This document shows positions 11,653 to 21,521 of a DNA stretch of 55,325 bases, one piece after another. The notes beneath the pieces are model-generated. The model made no database searches, was not told the origin of the DNA, and saw nothing but the letters and a program-made list of their open reading frames with translations. Each line of letters begins with the position of its first letter. Within the stretch, counting starts at the first letter, position 1. The translations under genes were made by a program, and so were the position numbers. The DNA is from a virus (lineage: Duplodnaviria; Caudoviricetes): the IMG/VR virus record IMGVR_UViG_3300037863_000028, positions 1-55,325 of that record, one strand, 5' to 3'.

Positions 11653-12159
11653 TCACGTACTTCTTCTGTTAGCGTACTGTTCTTTTCGTGTAGCCCATCT
11701 AACATTGCCCGGCTCATAATTACCGTTGTTATCTATACGATCTATAGTGTGCTCAGGACTAGGCTTAGGTCCTATGTATGATAAAAAAACAACAAACGAT
11801 TTTTCCCATTCCGGGCAAACCCGTATGCCTCGACCTCCGTAGTTTTTGTACCCAACATGACTAGGGCGGTTGCATCGGTCACGCATACCGCACCATGTTT
11901 TATATTCAGAAGAAGGTTTTTGCTTAGCCCCGACCCGACTATGTTGGTGTTTAGTAAGTCTGCTTGACATACGCTCCGCTTTATAGCACCCACAGGACTG
12001 CACTTTACCCTCCCGCAAGTTCTGCGCCATTACCTGAGTAAGTTTCCCGCAATCACACAGACACCTCCAGTATATTTCCCGCCTACCTTTTATCTTGATG
12101 TGGTCTACTACCGTTAATCTACCGAACTTCATATTAGTTATGTCGATCATATTGGGCAT
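11653..12159 (-). CDS. free-standing HNH-type homing endonuclease
   Basis: KFGRLTVV, WRCLCDCG, SCGC, YGGRGIRVC, TIDRIDNNGNYEPGNVRWAT motifs; AGGAG RBS. Confidence 0.85.
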   Translation of the reverse strand: MPNMIDITNMKFGRLTVVDHIKIKGRREIYWRCLCDCGKLTQVMAQNLREGKVQSCGCYKAERMSSRLTKHQHSRVGAKQKPSSEYKTWCGMRDRCNRPSHVGYKNYGGRGIRVCPEWEKSFVVFLSYIGPKPSPEHTIDRIDNNGNYEPGNVRWATRKEQYANRRST

Positions 12160-12202: not shown

Positions 12203-14461
12203 TTATGTCCAACCTGCCGATGAAATTTTCTTTATCTCTCTACTCATTGGATGTATTGACCCTGCTCCAGCACTATTTAAATGAAGCATTAGATACTGCA
12301 ACGCCTCTGCTACGTGGCTGTGTTTGTTCTTGTCGATGTCCCCATCCCCTTTGGGTTTGTACCGATACCCACCCATCATCGCCGCCTTGAGCTGCGTACA
12401 ACCGGGGTCTAGTAAGAACGCAGGGTCGCCATCTACTTGCCGCATGAGGTACTCATCGACTGAGTTAATACGTGCCGATATGCTGTTGGTCTTAGCTGGT
12501 ATAACTTTAAACCCTTCAGCCTTGATGATGTCCACCACACTGCGCTCGTCTGTCTGCGCTCGCTGCACACCCGCTGGGTCAACCACAATCAGCACAGGCG
12601 CACCACTGAACTTCTCAAAGAGCAAAGGCTTGAGCATCGTACGTATGAACCGTTGCGCCCCCATATCAAACGACACACACTCACTCAGGACAAGCGCTCG
12701 CCCTCGTGGATCTTGTTGTCCGATGACGGCAGCGGGTGTGAGTCCCAAGTCCATGCCAACGACCACAGGACGCATACCGTTGTTAATGTATCGCAGAGTG
12801 CTTCGCGCCATGTGGTAGTCGGGTCTGAAGTATTTGTAGACTGGCATACCGGCTGACGAGAGTCCGTACTCGCCGTCGATGTAAACCCTAATATATTCTT
12901 CTGATCGACCTTGGGTGTCATAGTATCCGTCCGGTAAGTTCTCAATGTTCTCAGCGTATGGACTGCGCCCTGATGGTTGCTTAAATACATCCCACCCGTT
13001 GTCGTTAGGTGACACGCCATCTGCAGGGTCAATCCCCTCCATTTGATAGTACCACCATGTATCCATAGTAGGCGGGTTAGTGTCTGCCCACATGCCGTGC
13101 CAAGTCGGACCACCATCTTTAGATGACGGATAACGCCCCACACGTTTAGACATTGCATCCACAATATCCGGGTGAATATCCCTGCACTCGTTAAACCATG
13201 CGAATGTAAGTTCTAGGGAGTTAAGGTTAGCCACGTCATCGGAGTCATCCAACGCTCGGAACATAATCTCACACTCAACGTCACCGACCTTGAAGAAATA
13301 AGTCTTTGTGGTTTTCATGTACCGACCACACACTCCATCAGGGAACCAGTCTAGAAATGTTTTGATAGTCGTATCGCTTAACTGCCTGACAGTCTCACGA
13401 ACTACTGCTGCACGTGACTTGCGTATGCCTTGAGCATTAGGCTTTTGCTGTGACGCACGGCGTATTATTTCAAAGGAACATGTTACCGATTTGCCACTGT
13501 TATGGTGGATAGTCCCGTCAGCGGTGACGTAGTTATTGGTATCTAAAACTTGCAAATCCCAATATGAACTCTTGACAGTTTGCCTATCTATACTTACAAT
13601 GGTCCTGTCGGATACGGAGGATATGTTAGATGAACGAAAACACACAGAAGATAATTGAGCTTTCAGATGGTCAGCGCTCATCTTCGCAGATTGCTCAGAT
13701 AGTTGGCTTGTCCCCACGCTACGTGCGTAAGATAATGCTTCGCTTAGACCTACCGAGGATAGGAGAAGGTGCACAGCCCGGCGAGAATAACCACCAATAC
13801 AAGTCTGGGCGACGCGTAGACCATGACGGATACGTTCTTGTAACCGCCCCATCAAACCACCCGTATGCTCGACAGAGGCCAAATAGTCAGACGAAACTGA
13901 TCTATGAGCACCGATTAGTCTTAGAGCAATATCTTGGTCGATACCTTCTTGCGTCAGAAACTGTAGACCACGTAGACGGGCTGACTCTGCATAACTCGCC
14001 AATGAACCTACGGCTGTTTGCCTCGAACGCAGATCATCTATCTGCGACTCTTTCAGGTATTGCACCAAAGATTTCAGAGGCTGGTCGCCGCAATACTGGT
14101 ATAAGGACTGACCTTGGGCAAGCGATTGTACGCGTTGATATGCACGATGCCCGTCGTAGACGAGGTGATGTTCGTTTGCGTCAAATACTCCTTGCTGCGT
14201 TGCAACTCGGTATAGATAGTCCGTACCTTTTGGGAACGAGCCACCACACCAAGAAAGCTGGAATTGACCTGTCCTCTCGTTCCAAGATAGAACGCGCATT
14301 GGCCGATCTATACTCCAGATGGGAACAAGCCCATACTCCGTAGCGATAAGTGTATCCGGAGCCAAGCACCCCACAGGCCCCATGAGCGTACGCATCTTGG
14401 CGTTGCTCTCCATGAACTTCGCACCAGTGGGTGGTGGCGTGTAGTTAATATCATTGGCCAT
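12203..14461 (-). CDS. terL: terminase large subunit, intein-containing (462 aa after splicing)
   Basis: Walker A GPVG|SGKS split by the intein; Walker B-like AWFNE; DTNPP coupling motif; RNase H-like nuclease VGMDLG and HVAEAL. Confidence 0.93.
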   Translation of the reverse strand: MANDINYTPPPTGAKFMESNAKMRTLMGPVGCLAPDTLIATEYGLVPIWSIDRPMRVLSWNERTGQFQLSWCGGSFPKGTDYLYRVATQQGVFDANEHHLVYDGHRAYQRVQSLAQGQSLYQYCGDQPLKSLVQYLKESQIDDLRSRQTAVGSLASYAESARLRGLQFLTQEGIDQDIALRLIGAHRSVSSDYLASVEHTGGLMGRLQERIRHGLRVAQTCIGGYSRRAVHLLLSSVGLSEALSYARSVGTSQLSEQSAKMSADHLKAQLSSVCFRSSNISSVSDRTIVSIDRQTVKSSYWDLQVLDTNNYVTADGTIHHNSGKSVTCSFEIIRRASQQKPNAQGIRKSRAAVVRETVRQLSDTTIKTFLDWFPDGVCGRYMKTTKTYFFKVGDVECEIMFRALDDSDDVANLNSLELTFAWFNECRDIHPDIVDAMSKRVGRYPSSKDGGPTWHGMWADTNPPTMDTWWYYQMEGIDPADGVSPNDNGWDVFKQPSGRSPYAENIENLPDGYYDTQGRSEEYIRVYIDGEYGLSSAGMPVYKYFRPDYHMARSTLRYINNGMRPVVVGMDLGLTPAAVIGQQDPRGRALVLSECVSFDMGAQRFIRTMLKPLLFEKFSGAPVLIVVDPAGVQRAQTDERSVVDIIKAEGFKVIPAKTNSISARINSVDEYLMRQVDGDPAFLLDPGCTQLKAAMMGGYRYKPKGDGDIDKNKHSHVAEALQYLMLHLNSAGAGSIHPMSREIKKISSAGWT
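13572..13600 (+). promoter_or_regulatory. sigma70-type promoter for the antisense HNH gene, inside the intein coding sequence
   Basis: TTGACA (13572-77), 17-nt spacer, TACAAT (13595-600); GGAGG at 13616-20; ATG at 13630. Confidence 0.8.
13630..14343 (+). CDS. HTH + HNH homing endonuclease encoded antisense, fully nested in the terL intein
   Basis: N-terminal HTH (SSSQIAQIVGLSPRYVRKIM), GENNHQYKSG motif, HNH core EHRLVLEQYLGRYL...ETVDHVDGLTLHNSPMNL; own promoter and RBS. Confidence 0.88.
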   Translation: MNENTQKIIELSDGQRSSSQIAQIVGLSPRYVRKIMLRLDLPRIGEGAQPGENNHQYKSGRRVDHDGYVLVTAPSNHPYARQRPNSQTKLIYEHRLVLEQYLGRYLLASETVDHVDGLTLHNSPMNLRLFASNADHLSATLSGIAPKISEAGRRNTGIRTDLGQAIVRVDMHDARRRRGDVRLRQILLAALQLGIDSPYLLGTSHHTKKAGIDLSSRSKIERALADLYSRWEQAHTP

Positions 14462-15209: not shown

Positions 15210-15860
15210 TCATAGTTTACCTAATAGGTATTTAGCAGCTTGTAGTAAAGTTCTAGGGCTATCGTTAAATTTACCAAGTGCCGTATTGCAGTACATACAT
15301 AGCATCCCACGAACTTTACCAGTGTCGTGGCAATGGTCAACAGATAACTTACCGTACCGTTCTTTGTGCGCTGGTCTAAGGCATATTGCACACTTGTTAT
15401 CCTGAGCCTCAGACATTTGCAGTATCTCATGCTCAGTCATCCCATACTTAGAAGCTCTAGTACCACTGTTATGTTTAGCACTTAGTTGTTTCGCACAATC
15501 TACGCAGTAACTACCACGCTTATCTTTGCGTTGCGGGTTTCTATGGTAGCTACTAAGCTCGACATCCCTCCCACATAGAGCACAGTCTTTGCGTCCATCC
15601 CCTCTCCTCCTCTTAAATAGAGATGCTTGTAGCCCCATTGGGTCAGTCCCGATGAACCTGTATTCGTGCTTCTCTGGATACCGCCCTATTATAAAAGCCA
15701 ATGCTGCTTTCCTCGCGTACATCCGAAACCCAAGCACTACTATCCTAGGTCCGGAGGATGTACGCTCTAGGTACACGGGTATGCCAGTAGACCTACGTGT
15801 TAGTACCCCGGAATCTGGATTGTACGAAAGTTCTAGTTTAAGTTGTTCAGCAGTAATCAT
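15210..15860 (-). CDS. endonuclease VII-family (Endonuclease_7) free-standing homing endonuclease
   Basis: QDNKCAIC...LSVDHCHDTGKVRGMLCMYCNTALG; upstream CxxC...CxxC zinc ribbon; N-terminal LSYNPDSG. Confidence 0.85.
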   Translation of the reverse strand: MITAEQLKLELSYNPDSGVLTRRSTGIPVYLERTSSGPRIVVLGFRMYARKAALAFIIGRYPEKHEYRFIGTDPMGLQASLFKRRRGDGRKDCALCGRDVELSSYHRNPQRKDKRGSYCVDCAKQLSAKHNSGTRASKYGMTEHEILQMSEAQDNKCAICLRPAHKERYGKLSVDHCHDTGKVRGMLCMYCNTALGKFNDSPRTLLQAAKYLLGKL

Positions 15861-20535: not shown

Positions 20536-21521
20536 TGCGAGCCTCATTACTTAAAGATACACTCAAGTCACTGTTTGATATTCAACGTACAGTATGTATA
20601 GAAGGTAGTCCAGGTGGTGGTAAGACAACCATTGTGCACCAAGCAGCAGAGGAACTGGGAGTGCCAGTAGTAGAGCGTCATATGCCTACCATGCTTGTCG
20701 AGGACTTCGGTATTCTGTTCCCCAAAGAAGGTAACGGGCTTGAGTATAAGCTGCCCGATTGGTTTCCAGTCAAGGGTAAAGCACCTGAACGAGGCATACT
20801 ACTGTTCGATGATCGTAACCAAGCCAATGCAGACTTACAAAAGGTACTGGCTAACATCTGCCAAGCACGAACACTACATGGCACACCGATGCCTGATGGG
20901 TGGCAGGTAATCAGCACAGGTAACAGACAGTCAGACCGAGCAGGTGCTAACCGTGTACTGTCACATCTTCGTAACCGTGAGACAGTTGTTGAACTAGAAA
21001 CCCACCTTGATGACTGGACTAACTGGGCTATTAACAACGATGTTAAGCCAGAGATAATTAGCTTCATTCGATTCCGACCTAACCTACTGCATGATTTCGA
21101 TGCACAGCGTGACCAGAACGCTACACCACGTAGTTGGGTAGAAGGTGTCAGTGATGTGCTTGGTAAGTGTAGCCCTGAAGCAGAGTTTGAACTGTTCAAA
21201 GGTGCAGTAGGTGAGGGTGCAGCAGCAGAGTTTGTTGGGTTCTTAAGAATCTTTCGTAAGCTGCCTAACCCTGATGCTGTGTTGCTCAACCCTGCTACTG
21301 CTGATGTGCCTACTGACCCTGCCACACTGTATGCCTTGAGTGGTGCGTTGGCTGAACGTGCCACCGAGAATAACTTTGACCGAGTGTGTACTTATGTAGA
21401 GCGTATGCCTGCTGACTTCTCAGTACTAACCATATCGTATGCCACCCGTAAGAACCCTGAACTAGCCAGTACTCAGTCGTTTACCAAGTGGGCGATGGCA
21501 CACCATGACGTTTTGTTTTAA
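20535..21521 (+). CDS. MoxR-like AAA+ ATPase
   Basis: Walker A GSPGGGKT, Walker B LLFDD, STGNR, LRNR, TPRSW. Confidence 0.88.
   Translation: MRASLLKDTLKSLFDIQRTVCIEGSPGGGKTTIVHQAAEELGVPVVERHMPTMLVEDFGILFPKEGNGLEYKLPDWFPVKGKAPERGILLFDDRNQANADLQKVLANICQARTLHGTPMPDGWQVISTGNRQSDRAGANRVLSHLRNRETVVELETHLDDWTNWAINNDVKPEIISFIRFRPNLLHDFDAQRDQNATPRSWVEGVSDVLGKCSPEAEFELFKGAVGEGAAAEFVGFLRIFRKLPNPDAVLLNPATADVPTDPATLYALSGALAERATENNFDRVCTYVERMPADFSVLTISYATRKNPELASTQSFTKWAMAHHDVLF

What the first reader, a model, noticed from the sequence alone, without database searches (positions are those of the whole stretch)
13499..14368. Intein whose homing endonuclease is a separate gene on the antisense strand
Seen: the terL intein has intact splicing motifs (C1, block B His, block F, HN/S+1). 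Its roughly 170-aa central region shows no LAGLIDADG or HNH motif and reads like filler. The opposite strand carries an uninterrupted 237-aa ORF (13630-14343) with HTH, GENNHQYKSG and a clear HNH core, so 714 nt are open on both strands. The HNH C-terminal tail overlaps almost the whole N-terminal splicing domain. The register pairs codon position 1 with 1, unlike the 3-with-3 register of the shadow ORF I checked (20678..21364). Known: intein endonucleases are normally in-frame domains of the intein polypeptide. Inference: an HNH gene invaded a mini-intein in reverse orientation. The intein splices out the antisense junk peptide and the HNH supplies mobility, making a two-strand composite selfish element. 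I cannot confirm how novel this is; hidden or alternate-frame endonucleases in insertion elements should be checked in the literature.
Basis: partly seen in the sequence, partly recalled or inferred. Interest (0 to 1): 0.95.

Follow-up and report, generated by a model that had tools for sequence, protein, structure and literature searches.

The report
Terminase intein with antisense HNH endonuclease
A self-splicing protein insert in a phage DNA-packaging gene carries its own mobility enzyme as a separate gene on the opposite DNA strand, a rare but already described layout, here with a new enzyme type and a stretch of DNA that encodes useful protein on both strands.

Summary
The window is a complete 55-kb phage record. 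Its terL (12203..14461, -) carries a 290-aa class-1-like intein (13499..14368) in the Walker A P-loop. A 237-aa HTH-HNH gene (13630..14343, +) lies antisense inside it, with codon position 1 facing position 1. Both frames are open in the same register in every related locus that contig ends let me judge: 29 of 29, 63 of 64 (one cut) and 11 of 11.

Site-class diversity shows three zones. The Hint ends evolve under minus-frame selection. The roughly 150-aa centre evolves only as the plus-strand HNH. About 50-60 codons (intein aa ~17-75, HNH tail aa ~175-231) are constrained in both frames. A conserved sigma-70-like promoter and GGAGG precede the HNH.

78 of the 80 closest terL alleles are precisely empty. 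Empty and occupied alleles coexist in one metagenome run. The element also sits in unrelated TerL families.

Antisense LAGLIDADG and VSR-like intein endonucleases are in print (bioRxiv 10.1101/2025.01.02.630785). I found no report of an antisense HNH or of a doubly constrained overlap with the splicing domain. Verdict: new variant of a known kind.

The parts
12203..14461 (-). terL precursor ORF (752 aa): N-extein, intein, C-extein
   Evidence: ORF; Terminase_3 5.3e-5; phrog_2 terminase large subunit 1.4e-22 at residues 320-732
14369..14461 (-). N-extein (31 aa) ending ...LMGPVG, the first half of the Walker A P-loop
   Evidence: 78 empty alleles read MGPVG|SGKSVT without interruption
13499..14368 (-). 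Intein, 290 aa, from Cys1 to HHN, followed by Ser+1
   Evidence: AlphaFold2; Foldseek hits to mini-inteins; net 870 nt missing in a contig of run X6
14084..14368 (-). Hint N-terminal splicing domain (intein aa 1-~95; invariant C1, T6, H68)
   Evidence: pLDDT 83-96 for aa 1-110 with beta strands up to aa 92; invariant columns; low minus position 1 and 2 diversity
13631..14083 (-). Intein centre (aa ~96-246): minus-frame passenger peptide, kept free of stops but not constrained as protein
   Evidence: minus position 2 diversity 0.61 against minus position 3 0.27, Wilcoxon p=3e-24; pLDDT below 50 for aa 151-247; no Pfam or PHROG hit
13499..13630 (-). Hint C-terminal splicing domain (aa 247-290; ...YWDLQVLDTNNYVTADGTIHHN)
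   Evidence: pLDDT 89-94; minus position 3 0.46-0.61 against minus position 2 0.07-0.40; Pfam Intein_splicing C-terminal part E 0.00077
12203..13498 (-). C-extein of TerL (431 aa plus stop), starting SGKSVT
13630..14343 (+). HTH-HNH endonuclease gene, 237 aa plus stop, antisense to the intein
   Evidence: phrog_10730 2e-58; HNH_3 2e-4; one search finds 620 clusters of relatives; plus position 3 far more variable than plus position 2
13648..13743 (+). N-terminal helix-turn-helix of the HNH protein (aa 7-38)
   Evidence: weak Pfam HTH_29, HTH_28 and HTH_24 hits; AlphaFold2 pLDDT 85-90 with three helices
13903..14037 (+). HNH catalytic core (aa 92-136; invariant H94, D113, H114, D116, G117, H121, N122, N126, N133, H136)
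   Evidence: HNH_3 at residues 92-130; invariant columns of alignment A1
14152..14322 (+). HNH C-terminal helical tail (aa 175-231), encoded antisense to the Hint N-domain
   Evidence: most conserved part of A1; pLDDT 74-86 and helical for aa 181-230; frozen four-fold wobble bases of intein codons pair with L183, L187, A190, E221 and L224
14144..14320 (.). Zone constrained in both frames (intein aa ~17-75, HNH aa ~172-230)
   Evidence: minus position 3 diversity 0.27 against 0.61 in non-overlapped controls, Mann-Whitney p=1e-17; all three site classes 0.12-0.20 for aa 16-60
13572..13600 (+). Sigma-70-like promoter TTGACA-17-TACAAT for the HNH gene, inside the antisense of the Hint C-domain
   Evidence: 11 of 12; conserved position and score in related loci; exceeds synonymous resampling of the intein frame
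13616..13620 (+). GGAGG Shine-Dalgarno, 9 nt before the HNH ATG
   Evidence: sequence; GGAGG-like boxes 8-10 nt upstream in most loci

Best explanation
This is a two-strand mobile intein. A class-1-type intein sits in the Walker A P-loop codons of the phage large terminase gene. Its Hint splicing domain is built from the first ~95 and the last ~44 residues. The ~150 residues between them are only the antisense read-out of another gene. They are kept free of stop codons and removed with the intein by protein splicing, which restores GPVG-SGKS.

The opposite strand encodes a free-standing-type HTH-HNH endonuclease. It is transcribed from its own sigma-70-like promoter and translated from its own Shine-Dalgarno. 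Most likely it cuts or nicks intein-less terL alleles at the conserved P-loop DNA during co-infection, so that repair copies the whole unit in (homing).

The HNH gene has a helical C-terminal tail that free-standing relatives lack. The tail runs ~85 codons into the antisense of the Hint N-domain, and ~50-60 of those codons are under purifying selection in both frames.

Shown here: both ORFs, their conservation and selection patterns, the Hint fold prediction, the promoter-like signal, and the precise presence/absence and spread across unrelated terL genes. Inferred: splicing activity, transcription and translation of the HNH, cleavage of the empty site, and the function of the tail (probably DNA binding).
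For: 1. Families. The plus ORF is phrog_10730 HNH (2e-58) and HNH_3. 620 relative clusters were found, and the best 120 are all 93-100% coverage. The intein model has pLDDT 83-96 (aa 1-110) and 89-94 (aa 251-290). It matches mini-inteins: Ssp DnaB 6frg E 6e-7, and Mtu RecA at a target-normalised TM of 0.84-0.85.

2. Both frames open in the same register. This holds in 29 of 29 loci. It holds in 63 of 64 further loci, the remaining one (L160) being cut by a contig end. It holds in 11 of 11 examined loci of more distant relatives; 11 of the 20 found were examined. Resampling gives 0 of 20,000 for the minus frame and 0.1-3.6% for the plus tail.

3. Selection, on 63 distinct elements. In the centre, minus position 2 is 0.61 against minus position 3 0.27 (p=3e-24). 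In the tail zone, minus position 3 is 0.27 against 0.61 in controls (p=1e-17). Four-fold wobble sites are 0.69-0.75 in 8 of 8 control columns. They are 0.00-0.21 in 5 of 10 tail-zone columns, and those five pair with conserved HNH residues.

4. Expression signals. There is an 11/12 promoter at 13572-13600 and a GGAGG. A score of 9/12 or better occurs in 50 of 63 loci against 16 of 308 control windows. In the rerun on codon-aligned windows, 51 of 63 loci score 9/12 or better, against a mean of 18.1 (maximum 28) in 200 synonymous resamplings.

5. Mobility. 78 of the 80 closest terL alleles are empty at exactly G|S. The empty allele L030 lies inside a 100%-supported clade with the window. At least 5 state changes occur on the extein tree. 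The C-exteins of the window, Ymer and PHS3 have no BLASTP similarity (E 0.07 or higher), while their HNHs are 46-52% identical. One run holds an empty contig (depth ~1061) and an occupied contig (depth ~79).

6. Decaying copies. L158, L161 and L186 have shortened inteins of 207-226 aa whose HNH has lost its N-terminus. This fits a homing cycle.

7. Viability. Isolated lytic phages (Pectobacterium phage Ymer, Pseudoalteromonas phage PHS3) carry the arrangement in their terminase large-subunit ORF. I did not search those genomes for a second terL. Assuming it is the only one, splicing must work.
Against: - There is no direct evidence of splicing, of a plus-strand transcript or protein, or of cleavage.
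- Pfam HNH_3 (21.3 bits) and Intein_splicing (17-20 bits) are below their gathering scores for the window's own sequences.
- The HNH core is poorly modelled (pLDDT below 50 for aa 96-169), so the beta-beta-alpha-metal fold is not confirmed, and Foldseek gave nothing below E 0.078.
- The loci are phylogenetically related, so the p-values for diversity and promoter scores are overstated.
- The -35 and -10 boxes lie antisense to partly conserved intein codons, although controls for that.
- The occupied and empty sets were gathered with different queries, so the tree sample is biased.
- Flank codon differences (GGG at -1 in 21 of 31 occupied against 8 of 78 empty alleles; AGY Ser in 14 of 31 against 7 of 78) are only suggestive of co-conversion.
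Confidence: 0.85

Rival explanations
1. The HNH is not a homing enzyme for the intein. It is a packaging accessory nuclease of the kind found next to terminase genes in cos phages (recalled from the literature on HNH proteins in phage packaging machines), and it merely happens to be housed inside the intein.
For: The gene lies within terL. PMC3592412 (abstract seen in the listing) notes that many phages encode an HNH next to their terminase genes.
Against: 78 of the 80 closest terL relatives lack the HNH together with the intein, so it is dispensable for packaging in this phage lineage. It moves with the intein into unrelated TerL families. Decayed copies persist with an intact intein.
Confidence: 0.05
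2. The plus ORF is real only up to about residue 170. The tail is read-through with no function of its own, and the frozen wobble bases reflect a DNA- or RNA-level constraint, such as an mRNA 3' structure, antisense regulation of terL, or a recombination signal.
For: Relatives without a tail exist: the free-standing L003, and the intein-resident L176 and L180 whose HNH stops at intein aa 70-75. The Atlas search gave no usable look-alike for the tail.
Against: The plus frame stays open through the tail in all 23 distinct sequences of the first locus set, although resampling gives 0.1-3.6%. The 120 best database relatives cover 93-100% of the query. The frozen four-fold sites are exactly those facing conserved tail residues, while those facing variable residues are free. 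The tail is predicted helical at pLDDT 74-86.
Confidence: 0.12
3. The insert is removed at the RNA level (a group I or II intron carrying a reverse-oriented endonuclease gene), or terL is expressed as two pieces (a fractured gene with a split intein), and the open minus frame is incidental.
For: Fractured phage genes with a free-standing endonuclease between split-intein halves are known, including a terminase (Dassa 2009, PMC2677866, passages read). The PHS3 record annotates terL only from the C-extein.
Against: The minus frame is continuous in every locus not cut by a contig end, against 0 of 20,000 by resampling. Cys1, the block B His, HHN and Ser/Thr+1 are conserved. A contiguous Hint fold is predicted. 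I ran no intron search.
Confidence: 0.03

Closest known systems
Non-canonical inteins with an anti-sense homing endonuclease (anti-sense LAGLIDADG in Synechocystis dnaX and a Chloroflexus SpoVR-like protein, credited to Gorbalenya 1998 and Gogarten 2002; anti-sense LAGLIDADG and anti-sense VSR-like in actinobacteriophage inteins, Gosselin, Arsenault and Gogarten, bioRxiv 10.1101/2025.01.02.630785; abstract, passages and section 15 read)
   Same: A contiguous intein, often in terL, whose in-frame centre has no recognisable fold. The endonuclease is an ORF on the opposite strand. Distribution over exteins is sporadic and suggests ongoing transfer. The proposed origin is a free-standing endonuclease gene invading an intein.
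   Different: The endonuclease family here is HTH-HNH (PF13392 type); that preprint lists HNH only as in-frame. The hosts are phages of Pseudomonadota and environmental phages (Pectobacterium, Pseudoalteromonas, and Enterobacter and Acinetobacter genome contigs, probably prophages), not actinobacteriophages. [quoted passage not shown] Here ~85 codons overlap the N-splicing domain, and ~50-60 of them are constrained in both frames. I did not see that paper's supplements, which may hold further cases.
Cyanobacterial dnaX intein with an out-of-frame (+2) LAGLIDADG endonuclease (Phillips, DeSimone and Gogarten, bioRxiv 10.64898/2026.09.14.751524; abstract and sections 14 and 17 read)
   Same: Frame-dependent selection: the intein frame is relaxed where the endonuclease frame is under purifying selection. 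Intein-free and intein-bearing alleles coexist in populations. Secondary invasion of a mini-intein is proposed.
   Different: There the overlap is same-strand +2 and the enzyme is LAGLIDADG, in a bacterial chromosomal gene. Here it is antisense, the enzyme is HNH, and the host gene is phage terL.
Fractured genes: split inteins with a free-standing endonuclease gene between the halves (Dassa et al. 2009, PMC2677866; abstract and passages read)
   Same: A phage gene, including a terminase, is interrupted at an intein by a free-standing-type endonuclease gene with its own control elements. This is a model for how inteins acquire endonucleases.
   Different: There the host gene is broken into two ORFs and joined by trans-splicing, and the endonucleases are GIY-YIG or Vsr-like. 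Here the host frame is continuous through the antisense of the endonuclease gene.
ShiLan-type insertion with a hidden out-of-frame HNH in a phage DNA methylase (Arsenault, Gosselin and Gogarten 2025, PMC11855218; abstract read)
   Same: An HNH endonuclease is hidden in an alternative reading frame of an insertion that stays open in the host frame, and there is evidence of active homing.
   Different: That element has no detectable splicing domains, and its HNH is described as out of frame, starting at a GTG 18 bp into the insertion; I did not check its strand. Here the Hint domains are intact and the HNH is antisense.
Free-standing HTH-HNH phage endonucleases of the same sequence family (for example MW202481 CDS UOF77512.1, locus L003; Streptomyces phage and Halobacterium phage phiH HNH genes)
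   Same: They share the HTH and the HNH core. L003 matches phrog_10730 profile positions 10-133 at 2.5e-18.
   Different: L003 stands between same-strand structural genes with no open antisense frame of 60 aa or more. It also lacks the C-terminal tail.

Membership tests
Intein (Hint domain, class 1) | N-terminal Cys/Ser nucleophile directly after the N-extein | tested here: met
   Cys1 is invariant in the 19-sequence alignment A2 and in all 23 distinct sequences
Intein (Hint domain, class 1) | Block B His, block F/G, terminal His-Asn, and a +1 Ser/Thr/Cys | tested here: met
   H68, W270, D271, H288, H289 and N290 are invariant. The next residue is S or T in all loci where the junction was found. 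The block names are recalled, not taken from a tool.
Intein (Hint domain, class 1) | Hint fold | tested here: met
   The AlphaFold2 ends have pLDDT 83-96 and 89-94. Foldseek top hits are mini-inteins, E 6e-7 to 1e-4, target-normalised TM 0.73-0.85.
Intein (Hint domain, class 1) | Curated Pfam model above threshold | tested here: not met
   PF14890 Intein_splicing scores 17.3-19.7 bits against a 35.8 cut-off, and only the C-terminal part matches. I treat this as a sensitivity limit, given the fold and motif results.
Intein (Hint domain, class 1) | In-frame insertion at a conserved host site, precisely absent from homologues | tested here: met
   78 of 80 close terL alleles read MGPVG|SGKSVT. 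A contig in run X6 lacks a net 870 nt.
Intein (Hint domain, class 1) | Protein splicing activity | not testable with these tools
   Inferred from viable isolated phages that carry the intein in their terminase large-subunit ORF; I did not search those genomes for a second terL
HNH endonuclease (PF13392 HNH_3 type) | Match to curated family models | tested here: inconclusive
   Pfam HNH_3 scores 21.3 bits against 24.8 for the window protein. However, phrog_10730 HNH gives 2e-58 plus 11 other HNH PHROGs, and PF13392 is precomputed for most of the 120 listed relatives.
HNH endonuclease (PF13392 HNH_3 type) | Conserved His/Asn/Asp residues of the active site | tested here: met
   H94, D113, H114, D116, H121, N122, N126, N133 and H136 are invariant in A1. 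Assigning catalytic roles to them is recalled, not tested.
HNH endonuclease (PF13392 HNH_3 type) | Beta-beta-alpha-metal fold | tested here: inconclusive
   The core has pLDDT below 50, and Foldseek found nothing below E 0.078
Homing endonuclease (functional class) | Encoded within a self-splicing element and co-distributed with it; occupied and empty alleles both exist | tested here: met
Homing endonuclease (functional class) | Cleaves the empty allele near the insertion site | not testable with these tools
   Needs enzyme assays
Non-canonical intein with an anti-sense endonuclease ORF | Endonuclease ORF on the opposite strand inside a contiguous intein, with an in-frame centre that lacks a recognisable fold | tested here: met
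Fractured gene / split intein | Host gene broken into two separate ORFs at the intein | tested here: not met
   The minus frame is continuous in all loci not cut by contig ends

The most novel reading that the evidence does not exclude
The C-terminal helical tail of the HNH (aa ~175-231) was born de novo. The endonuclease ORF extended step by step into the antisense strand of the pre-existing Hint N-terminal splicing domain, a process called overprinting. The tail has since become a functional, probably DNA-binding, domain. About 50-60 codons now encode parts of two folded domains on opposite strands.

Intermediates seem to survive. The HNH stop lies at intein aa 70-75 (L176, L180), 34 (L181), 23 (L178) and 2-9 (window, L182-L184). 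Free-standing relatives lack the tail.
Probability: 0.4. Interest if true: 0.8.

Novelty: new variant of a known kind. Interest (0 to 1): 0.6.

Why it matters
This adds a third endonuclease family (HTH-HNH) to the short list of intein endonucleases encoded on the antisense strand. It also shows that the layout is common and widespread outside actinobacteriophages: 620 protein clusters, about 100 audited loci, isolated Pectobacterium and Pseudoalteromonas phages, and Enterobacter and Acinetobacter genome contigs.

Annotation pipelines handle it inconsistently. In the Ymer record only the long minus-strand ORF is annotated, as 'hypothetical protein', and the HNH is missed. In PHS3 the HNH is annotated and terL is truncated. 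Such inteins are therefore likely to be filed as mini-inteins or decaying inteins, a point the 2025 preprint also makes.

The segment constrained in both frames is a clean natural case of antisense dual coding between a Hint domain and an endonuclease tail, with apparent evolutionary intermediates. It is useful for studying overprinting and how free-standing endonucleases and inteins merge.

In practice, the ~150-aa unconstrained linker shows that this Hint scaffold tolerates a large arbitrary insert, and the HNH may be a new P-loop-DNA-specific nuclease.

Tried and rejected
- Megablast of the terL region against annotated phages: no match.
- phmmer and hmmsearch against PDB sequences: nothing informative. 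The intein's best hit was RSC7 at E 0.12. The HNH profile hit only a designed HTH repeat through the N-terminal HTH.
- Foldseek of the HNH model: nothing below E 0.078. The model is low-confidence (mean pLDDT 59.9), so I drew no fold claim from it.
- ESM Atlas look-alikes for the tail (aa 168-237): no usable hit.
- RNA evidence: no RNA holder listed for the stretch, so nothing can be said about expression from public runs.
- No terminator-like site was found downstream of the HNH stop on the plus strand. The two plus-strand sites found lie upstream, at 13446 and 13516.
- Co-conversion of extein flanks: codon differences between occupied and empty alleles are suggestive only, and the alleles are not phylogenetically independent.
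- The junction of L193 was not resolved by my pattern, so I left it out of the series. Of the 20 loci, only 11 were examined.
- In one search, 90 loci gave complete elements. L160 and L167 were skipped because of contig ends, and one further locus was not picked up by the junction pattern. Of 77 distinct DNAs, only the 63 with inteins of 285-302 aa were aligned. This drops the short (207-284 aa) and long (305-345 aa) forms.
- In the tree, two rows from contigs already represented (L117, L123) were dropped, and only loci with an MGPVG-type N-extein and a C-extein of at least 400 aa were used.
- Considered and rejected: a chance shadow ORF, a packaging HNH, an RNA intron, and a split intein (see the rival explanations).
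- I ran no Rfam or intron search and no complex prediction.
- Supplements of the papers were closed. The supplementary tables of 10.1101/2025.01.02.630785 could list HNH-type antisense cases that I could not see.
- Searches behind the statement that an antisense HNH intein endonuclease is not in print. Only open-access PMC and bioRxiv full text was covered. Gorbalenya 1998 and Gogarten 2002 were not read; they are cited only through the preprint.

Full report
**What is there**

The window is a complete 55,325-bp virus record with direct terminal repeats. On the minus strand, 12203..14461 is a 752-aa ORF. Its C-terminal 430 residues match terminase large subunit models (phrog_2 1.4e-22; Pfam Terminase_3 5.3e-5).

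After ...LMGPVG the protein continues with Cys-Leu-Ala-Pro-Asp-Thr. 290 residues later it reads ...Thr-Ile-His-His-Asn, followed by Ser-Gly-Lys-Ser. Removing the 290 residues gives GPVGSGKS, a Walker A P-loop.

On the plus strand, 13630..14343 is a 237-aa ORF that lies wholly inside the intein. Since 14461-13630 = 831 = 3x277, the two frames face each other with position 1 on position 1, plus 2 on minus 3, and plus 3 on minus 2.

**Both products belong to real families**

- The plus ORF matches PHROG 10730 (HNH endonuclease) end to end at 2e-58, and eleven other HNH PHROGs more weakly.
- Pfam HNH_3 hits residues 92-130 (2e-4, just under the gathering score), and weak HTH models hit residues 7-38.
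- In a 19-sequence alignment (A1) the residues H94, D113, H114, D116, G117, H121, N122, N126, N133 and H136 are invariant.
- The minus-frame insert hits only the C-terminal part of Pfam Intein_splicing, below threshold.
- An AlphaFold2 model built on 19 relatives is confident for residues 1-110 (pLDDT 83-96, beta-rich) and 251-290 (89-94). It has pLDDT below 50 for 151-247.
- Foldseek places the model on mini-inteins: Ssp DnaB E 6e-7; Mtu RecA, Npu DnaB and DnaE with target-normalised TM 0.73-0.85.
- The centre has no Pfam or PHROG hit.

**The arrangement is conserved and not due to chance**

A protein search of annotated phages found full-length relatives of the HNH (46-52% identity) in eight Pectobacterium/Dickeya phages and in Pseudoalteromonas phage PHS3. 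In Ymer and PHS3 the HNH again lies antisense inside a terL ORF of 754 and 708 aa, with G|C...HHN|[ST]GKS junctions.

Scans of IMG/VR and of GTDB genomes gave many more loci:

| Locus set | Both frames open, same register |
|---|---|
| Window, Ymer, PHS3 and 26 IMG/VR loci | 29 of 29 |
| 64 further loci | 63 of 64 (L160 is cut by a contig end) |
| More distant relatives (11 of the 20 found were examined) | 11 of 11 |

Resampling shows how unlikely this is by chance. With the HNH protein held fixed and synonymous codons resampled, the antisense frame has a mean of 8.2 stops and was open in 0 of 20,000 samples. With intein residues 9-95 held fixed, the plus frame is open in 0.1-3.6% of samples.

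The protein database holds 620 clusters of relatives. The best 120 are all full-length and 227-255 aa.

**Which strand is selected where**

In this register each strand's wobble position faces the other strand's second position, so nucleotide diversity by site class shows which strand is under selection. On 63 distinct elements (a first pass on 23):

| Zone | Minus position 2 | Minus position 3 | Reading |
|---|---|---|---|
| Non-overlapped intein ends and extein flanks | 0.20-0.37 | 0.54-0.68 | ordinary minus-strand gene |
| Intein aa 96-246 | 0.61 | 0.27 | plus frame selected, minus frame a passenger (Wilcoxon p=3e-24) |
| Intein aa 17-75 | low | 0.27 (controls 0.61) | all three classes low, both frames constrained (Mann-Whitney p=1e-17) |

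The sharpest test uses four-fold degenerate codons of conserved intein residues. Their wobble diversity is 0.69-0.75 in 8 of 8 control columns. In the overlap zone it is 0.00-0.21 in 5 of 10 columns. Those five face the second codon positions of conserved HNH tail residues (L183, L187, A190, E221, L224). The free ones face variable residues or lie past the conserved end.

The tail is predicted helical at pLDDT 74-86. So about 50-60 codons are under protein-level selection on both strands. The loci are related, so the p-values are generous, but the effect sizes are large.

**Expression signals**

A sigma-70-like promoter (TTGACA-17-TACAAT, 11 of 12) lies at 13572-13600 on the plus strand, and a GGAGG lies 9 nt before the ATG. 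Across 63 distinct loci, the best promoter score in the 125-nt window at the HNH start (110 nt upstream plus the first 15 nt) is:

| Comparison | Score 9/12 or better |
|---|---|
| Observed, window at the HNH start | 50 of 63 |
| Control windows on the same strand | 16 of 308 |
| Observed, rerun on windows aligned to intein codons | 51 of 63 |
| Synonymous resampling of the intein frame, 200 runs | mean 18.1, maximum 28 |

The promoter usually sits at a fixed distance from the start. No RNA run holds the sequence, so expression remains inferred.

**Mobility**

- Of the 80 IMG/VR loci most similar to the window's TerL C-extein (84-97% identity, out of at least 596 relatives), 78 read MGPVG|SGKSVT without interruption and 2 carry the intein.
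- On a FastTree of 112 C-exteins (34 occupied, 78 empty) the state changes at least 5 times, with at least 3 forced by well-supported branches, against a mean of 28.5 in shuffles. The empty allele L030 sits in a 100%-supported three-row clade with the window and L004. The two sets came from different queries, so only the scatter is informative, not the frequency.
- In metagenome run X6, one contig (depth ~1061) joins 13496 to 14373 with six replacement letters, a net loss of 870 nt, which is exactly the intein. Another contig (depth ~79) covers the occupied form.
- The C-exteins of the window, Ymer and PHS3 have no BLASTP similarity (E 0.07 or higher), so the unit has moved between unrelated terminases, always into G|[ST]-x-K of the P-loop.
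- Three loci (L158, L161, L186) have short inteins (207-226 aa) in which the HNH has lost its N-terminus while the intein frame is intact. That is expected for the decay phase of a homing cycle.
- Four loci from genome assemblies (L168 Enterobacter pasteurii, L173 Acinetobacter, and the MAG contigs L169 and L172; probably prophages) have a second N-terminal HTH in the HNH and are the likely source of the 336-345-aa inteins counted.

**Origin of the tail**

A profile search of 1.84 billion representatives found 28,584 HNH relatives. Only about 35-40 of the best 150 match through the tail. Many match only profile positions ~6-165 and end there.

A truly free-standing relative (MW202481, L003) has no open antisense frame of 60 aa or more, no tail, and matches PHROG 10730 only at positions 10-133.

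Among intein-resident relatives, the HNH stop lies at intein residue 70-75 (L176 and L180, a different Hint subfamily), 34 (L181), 23 (L178) or 2-9 (window, L182-L184). This graded series suggests that the ORF extended into the antisense of the Hint N-domain. That is an inference and I give it about 40%.

**What is known**

Full-text searches show that the kind is already described.

[quoted passage not shown] - Phillips et al. (bioRxiv 10.64898/2026.09.14.751524; abstract and sections 14 and 17) show frame-dependent selection for a +2 LAGLIDADG in the dnaX intein.
- Arsenault et al. 2025 (PMC11855218; abstract) describe a hidden out-of-frame HNH in a non-intein insertion.
- Dassa et al. 2009 (PMC2677866; passages) describe fractured genes.

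I found no report of an antisense HNH in an intein, or of a doubly constrained overlap with the splicing domain. Supplements were closed, and only open full text was searched.

**Verdict**

Confidence is 0.85 that this is a real two-strand intein-plus-HNH unit. It is lower, about 0.7, for homing by cleavage of the empty P-loop site, which is inferred. Novelty: a new variant of a known kind. Interest 0.6: the layout itself is known, but three things would interest specialists. These are the new endonuclease family, the breadth of the element, and the well-supported antisense dual coding with apparent intermediates.

Noticed in passing
window 11653..12159 (-): A 168-aa ORF starting 44 nt downstream of the terL stop is another HNH endonuclease (phrog_374, 1.1e-61; no Pfam hit). 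It may be a free-standing homing endonuclease next to terL.
   Followed up: partly
window 15210..15860 (-): A 216-aa ORF upstream of terL carries a Recombination endonuclease VII domain (PF02945, 2.3e-24). The packaging region therefore holds three nuclease genes within about 4 kb.
   Followed up: partly
L001 (Pectobacterium phage Ymer, OP748252.2) and L002 (Pseudoalteromonas phage PHS3, KX912252.1): The public annotations disagree on the same architecture. Ymer annotates only the 754-aa minus ORF, as 'hypothetical protein', and misses the HNH. PHS3 annotates the HNH and truncates terL to its C-extein (391 aa), although a 708-aa ORF is open.
   Followed up: yes
L168 (Enterobacter pasteurii contig), L173 (Acinetobacter sp. 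contig), L169, L172: Larger variants in contigs of bacterial genome assemblies, probably prophages. The HNH has a duplicated N-terminal HTH, and the antisense intein frame stays open for more than 1 kb. They are the likely source of the 336-345-aa inteins counted.
   Followed up: partly
L158, L161, L186: Short inteins (207, 211 and 226 aa) in which the HNH frame has lost its HTH and start codon while the Hint frame is intact. These look like decaying endonucleases on the way to mini-inteins.
   Followed up: partly
L176, L180 (IMG/VR): A different Hint subfamily (316-aa intein, junction GGRG|C...HN|S[AG]KS) also carries an antisense HNH of the same family, but without the tail. Its stop lies at intein aa 70-75. 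This may be an independent invasion or an early stage.
   Followed up: partly
window 13496/14373 flanks; loci: Occupied alleles use GGG for the -1 Gly in 21 of 31 cases against 8 of 78 empty alleles. They use AGY for the +1 Ser in 14 of 31 against 7 of 78. This may be co-conversion or target-immunity codons, and it is not corrected for phylogeny.
   Followed up: partly
one search run table: The DNA holders of this stretch are mostly labelled salt lake metagenomes, with a few labelled ice, aquatic or outdoor. Only X1, X2, X4 and X6 were laid on the sequence.
   Followed up: no
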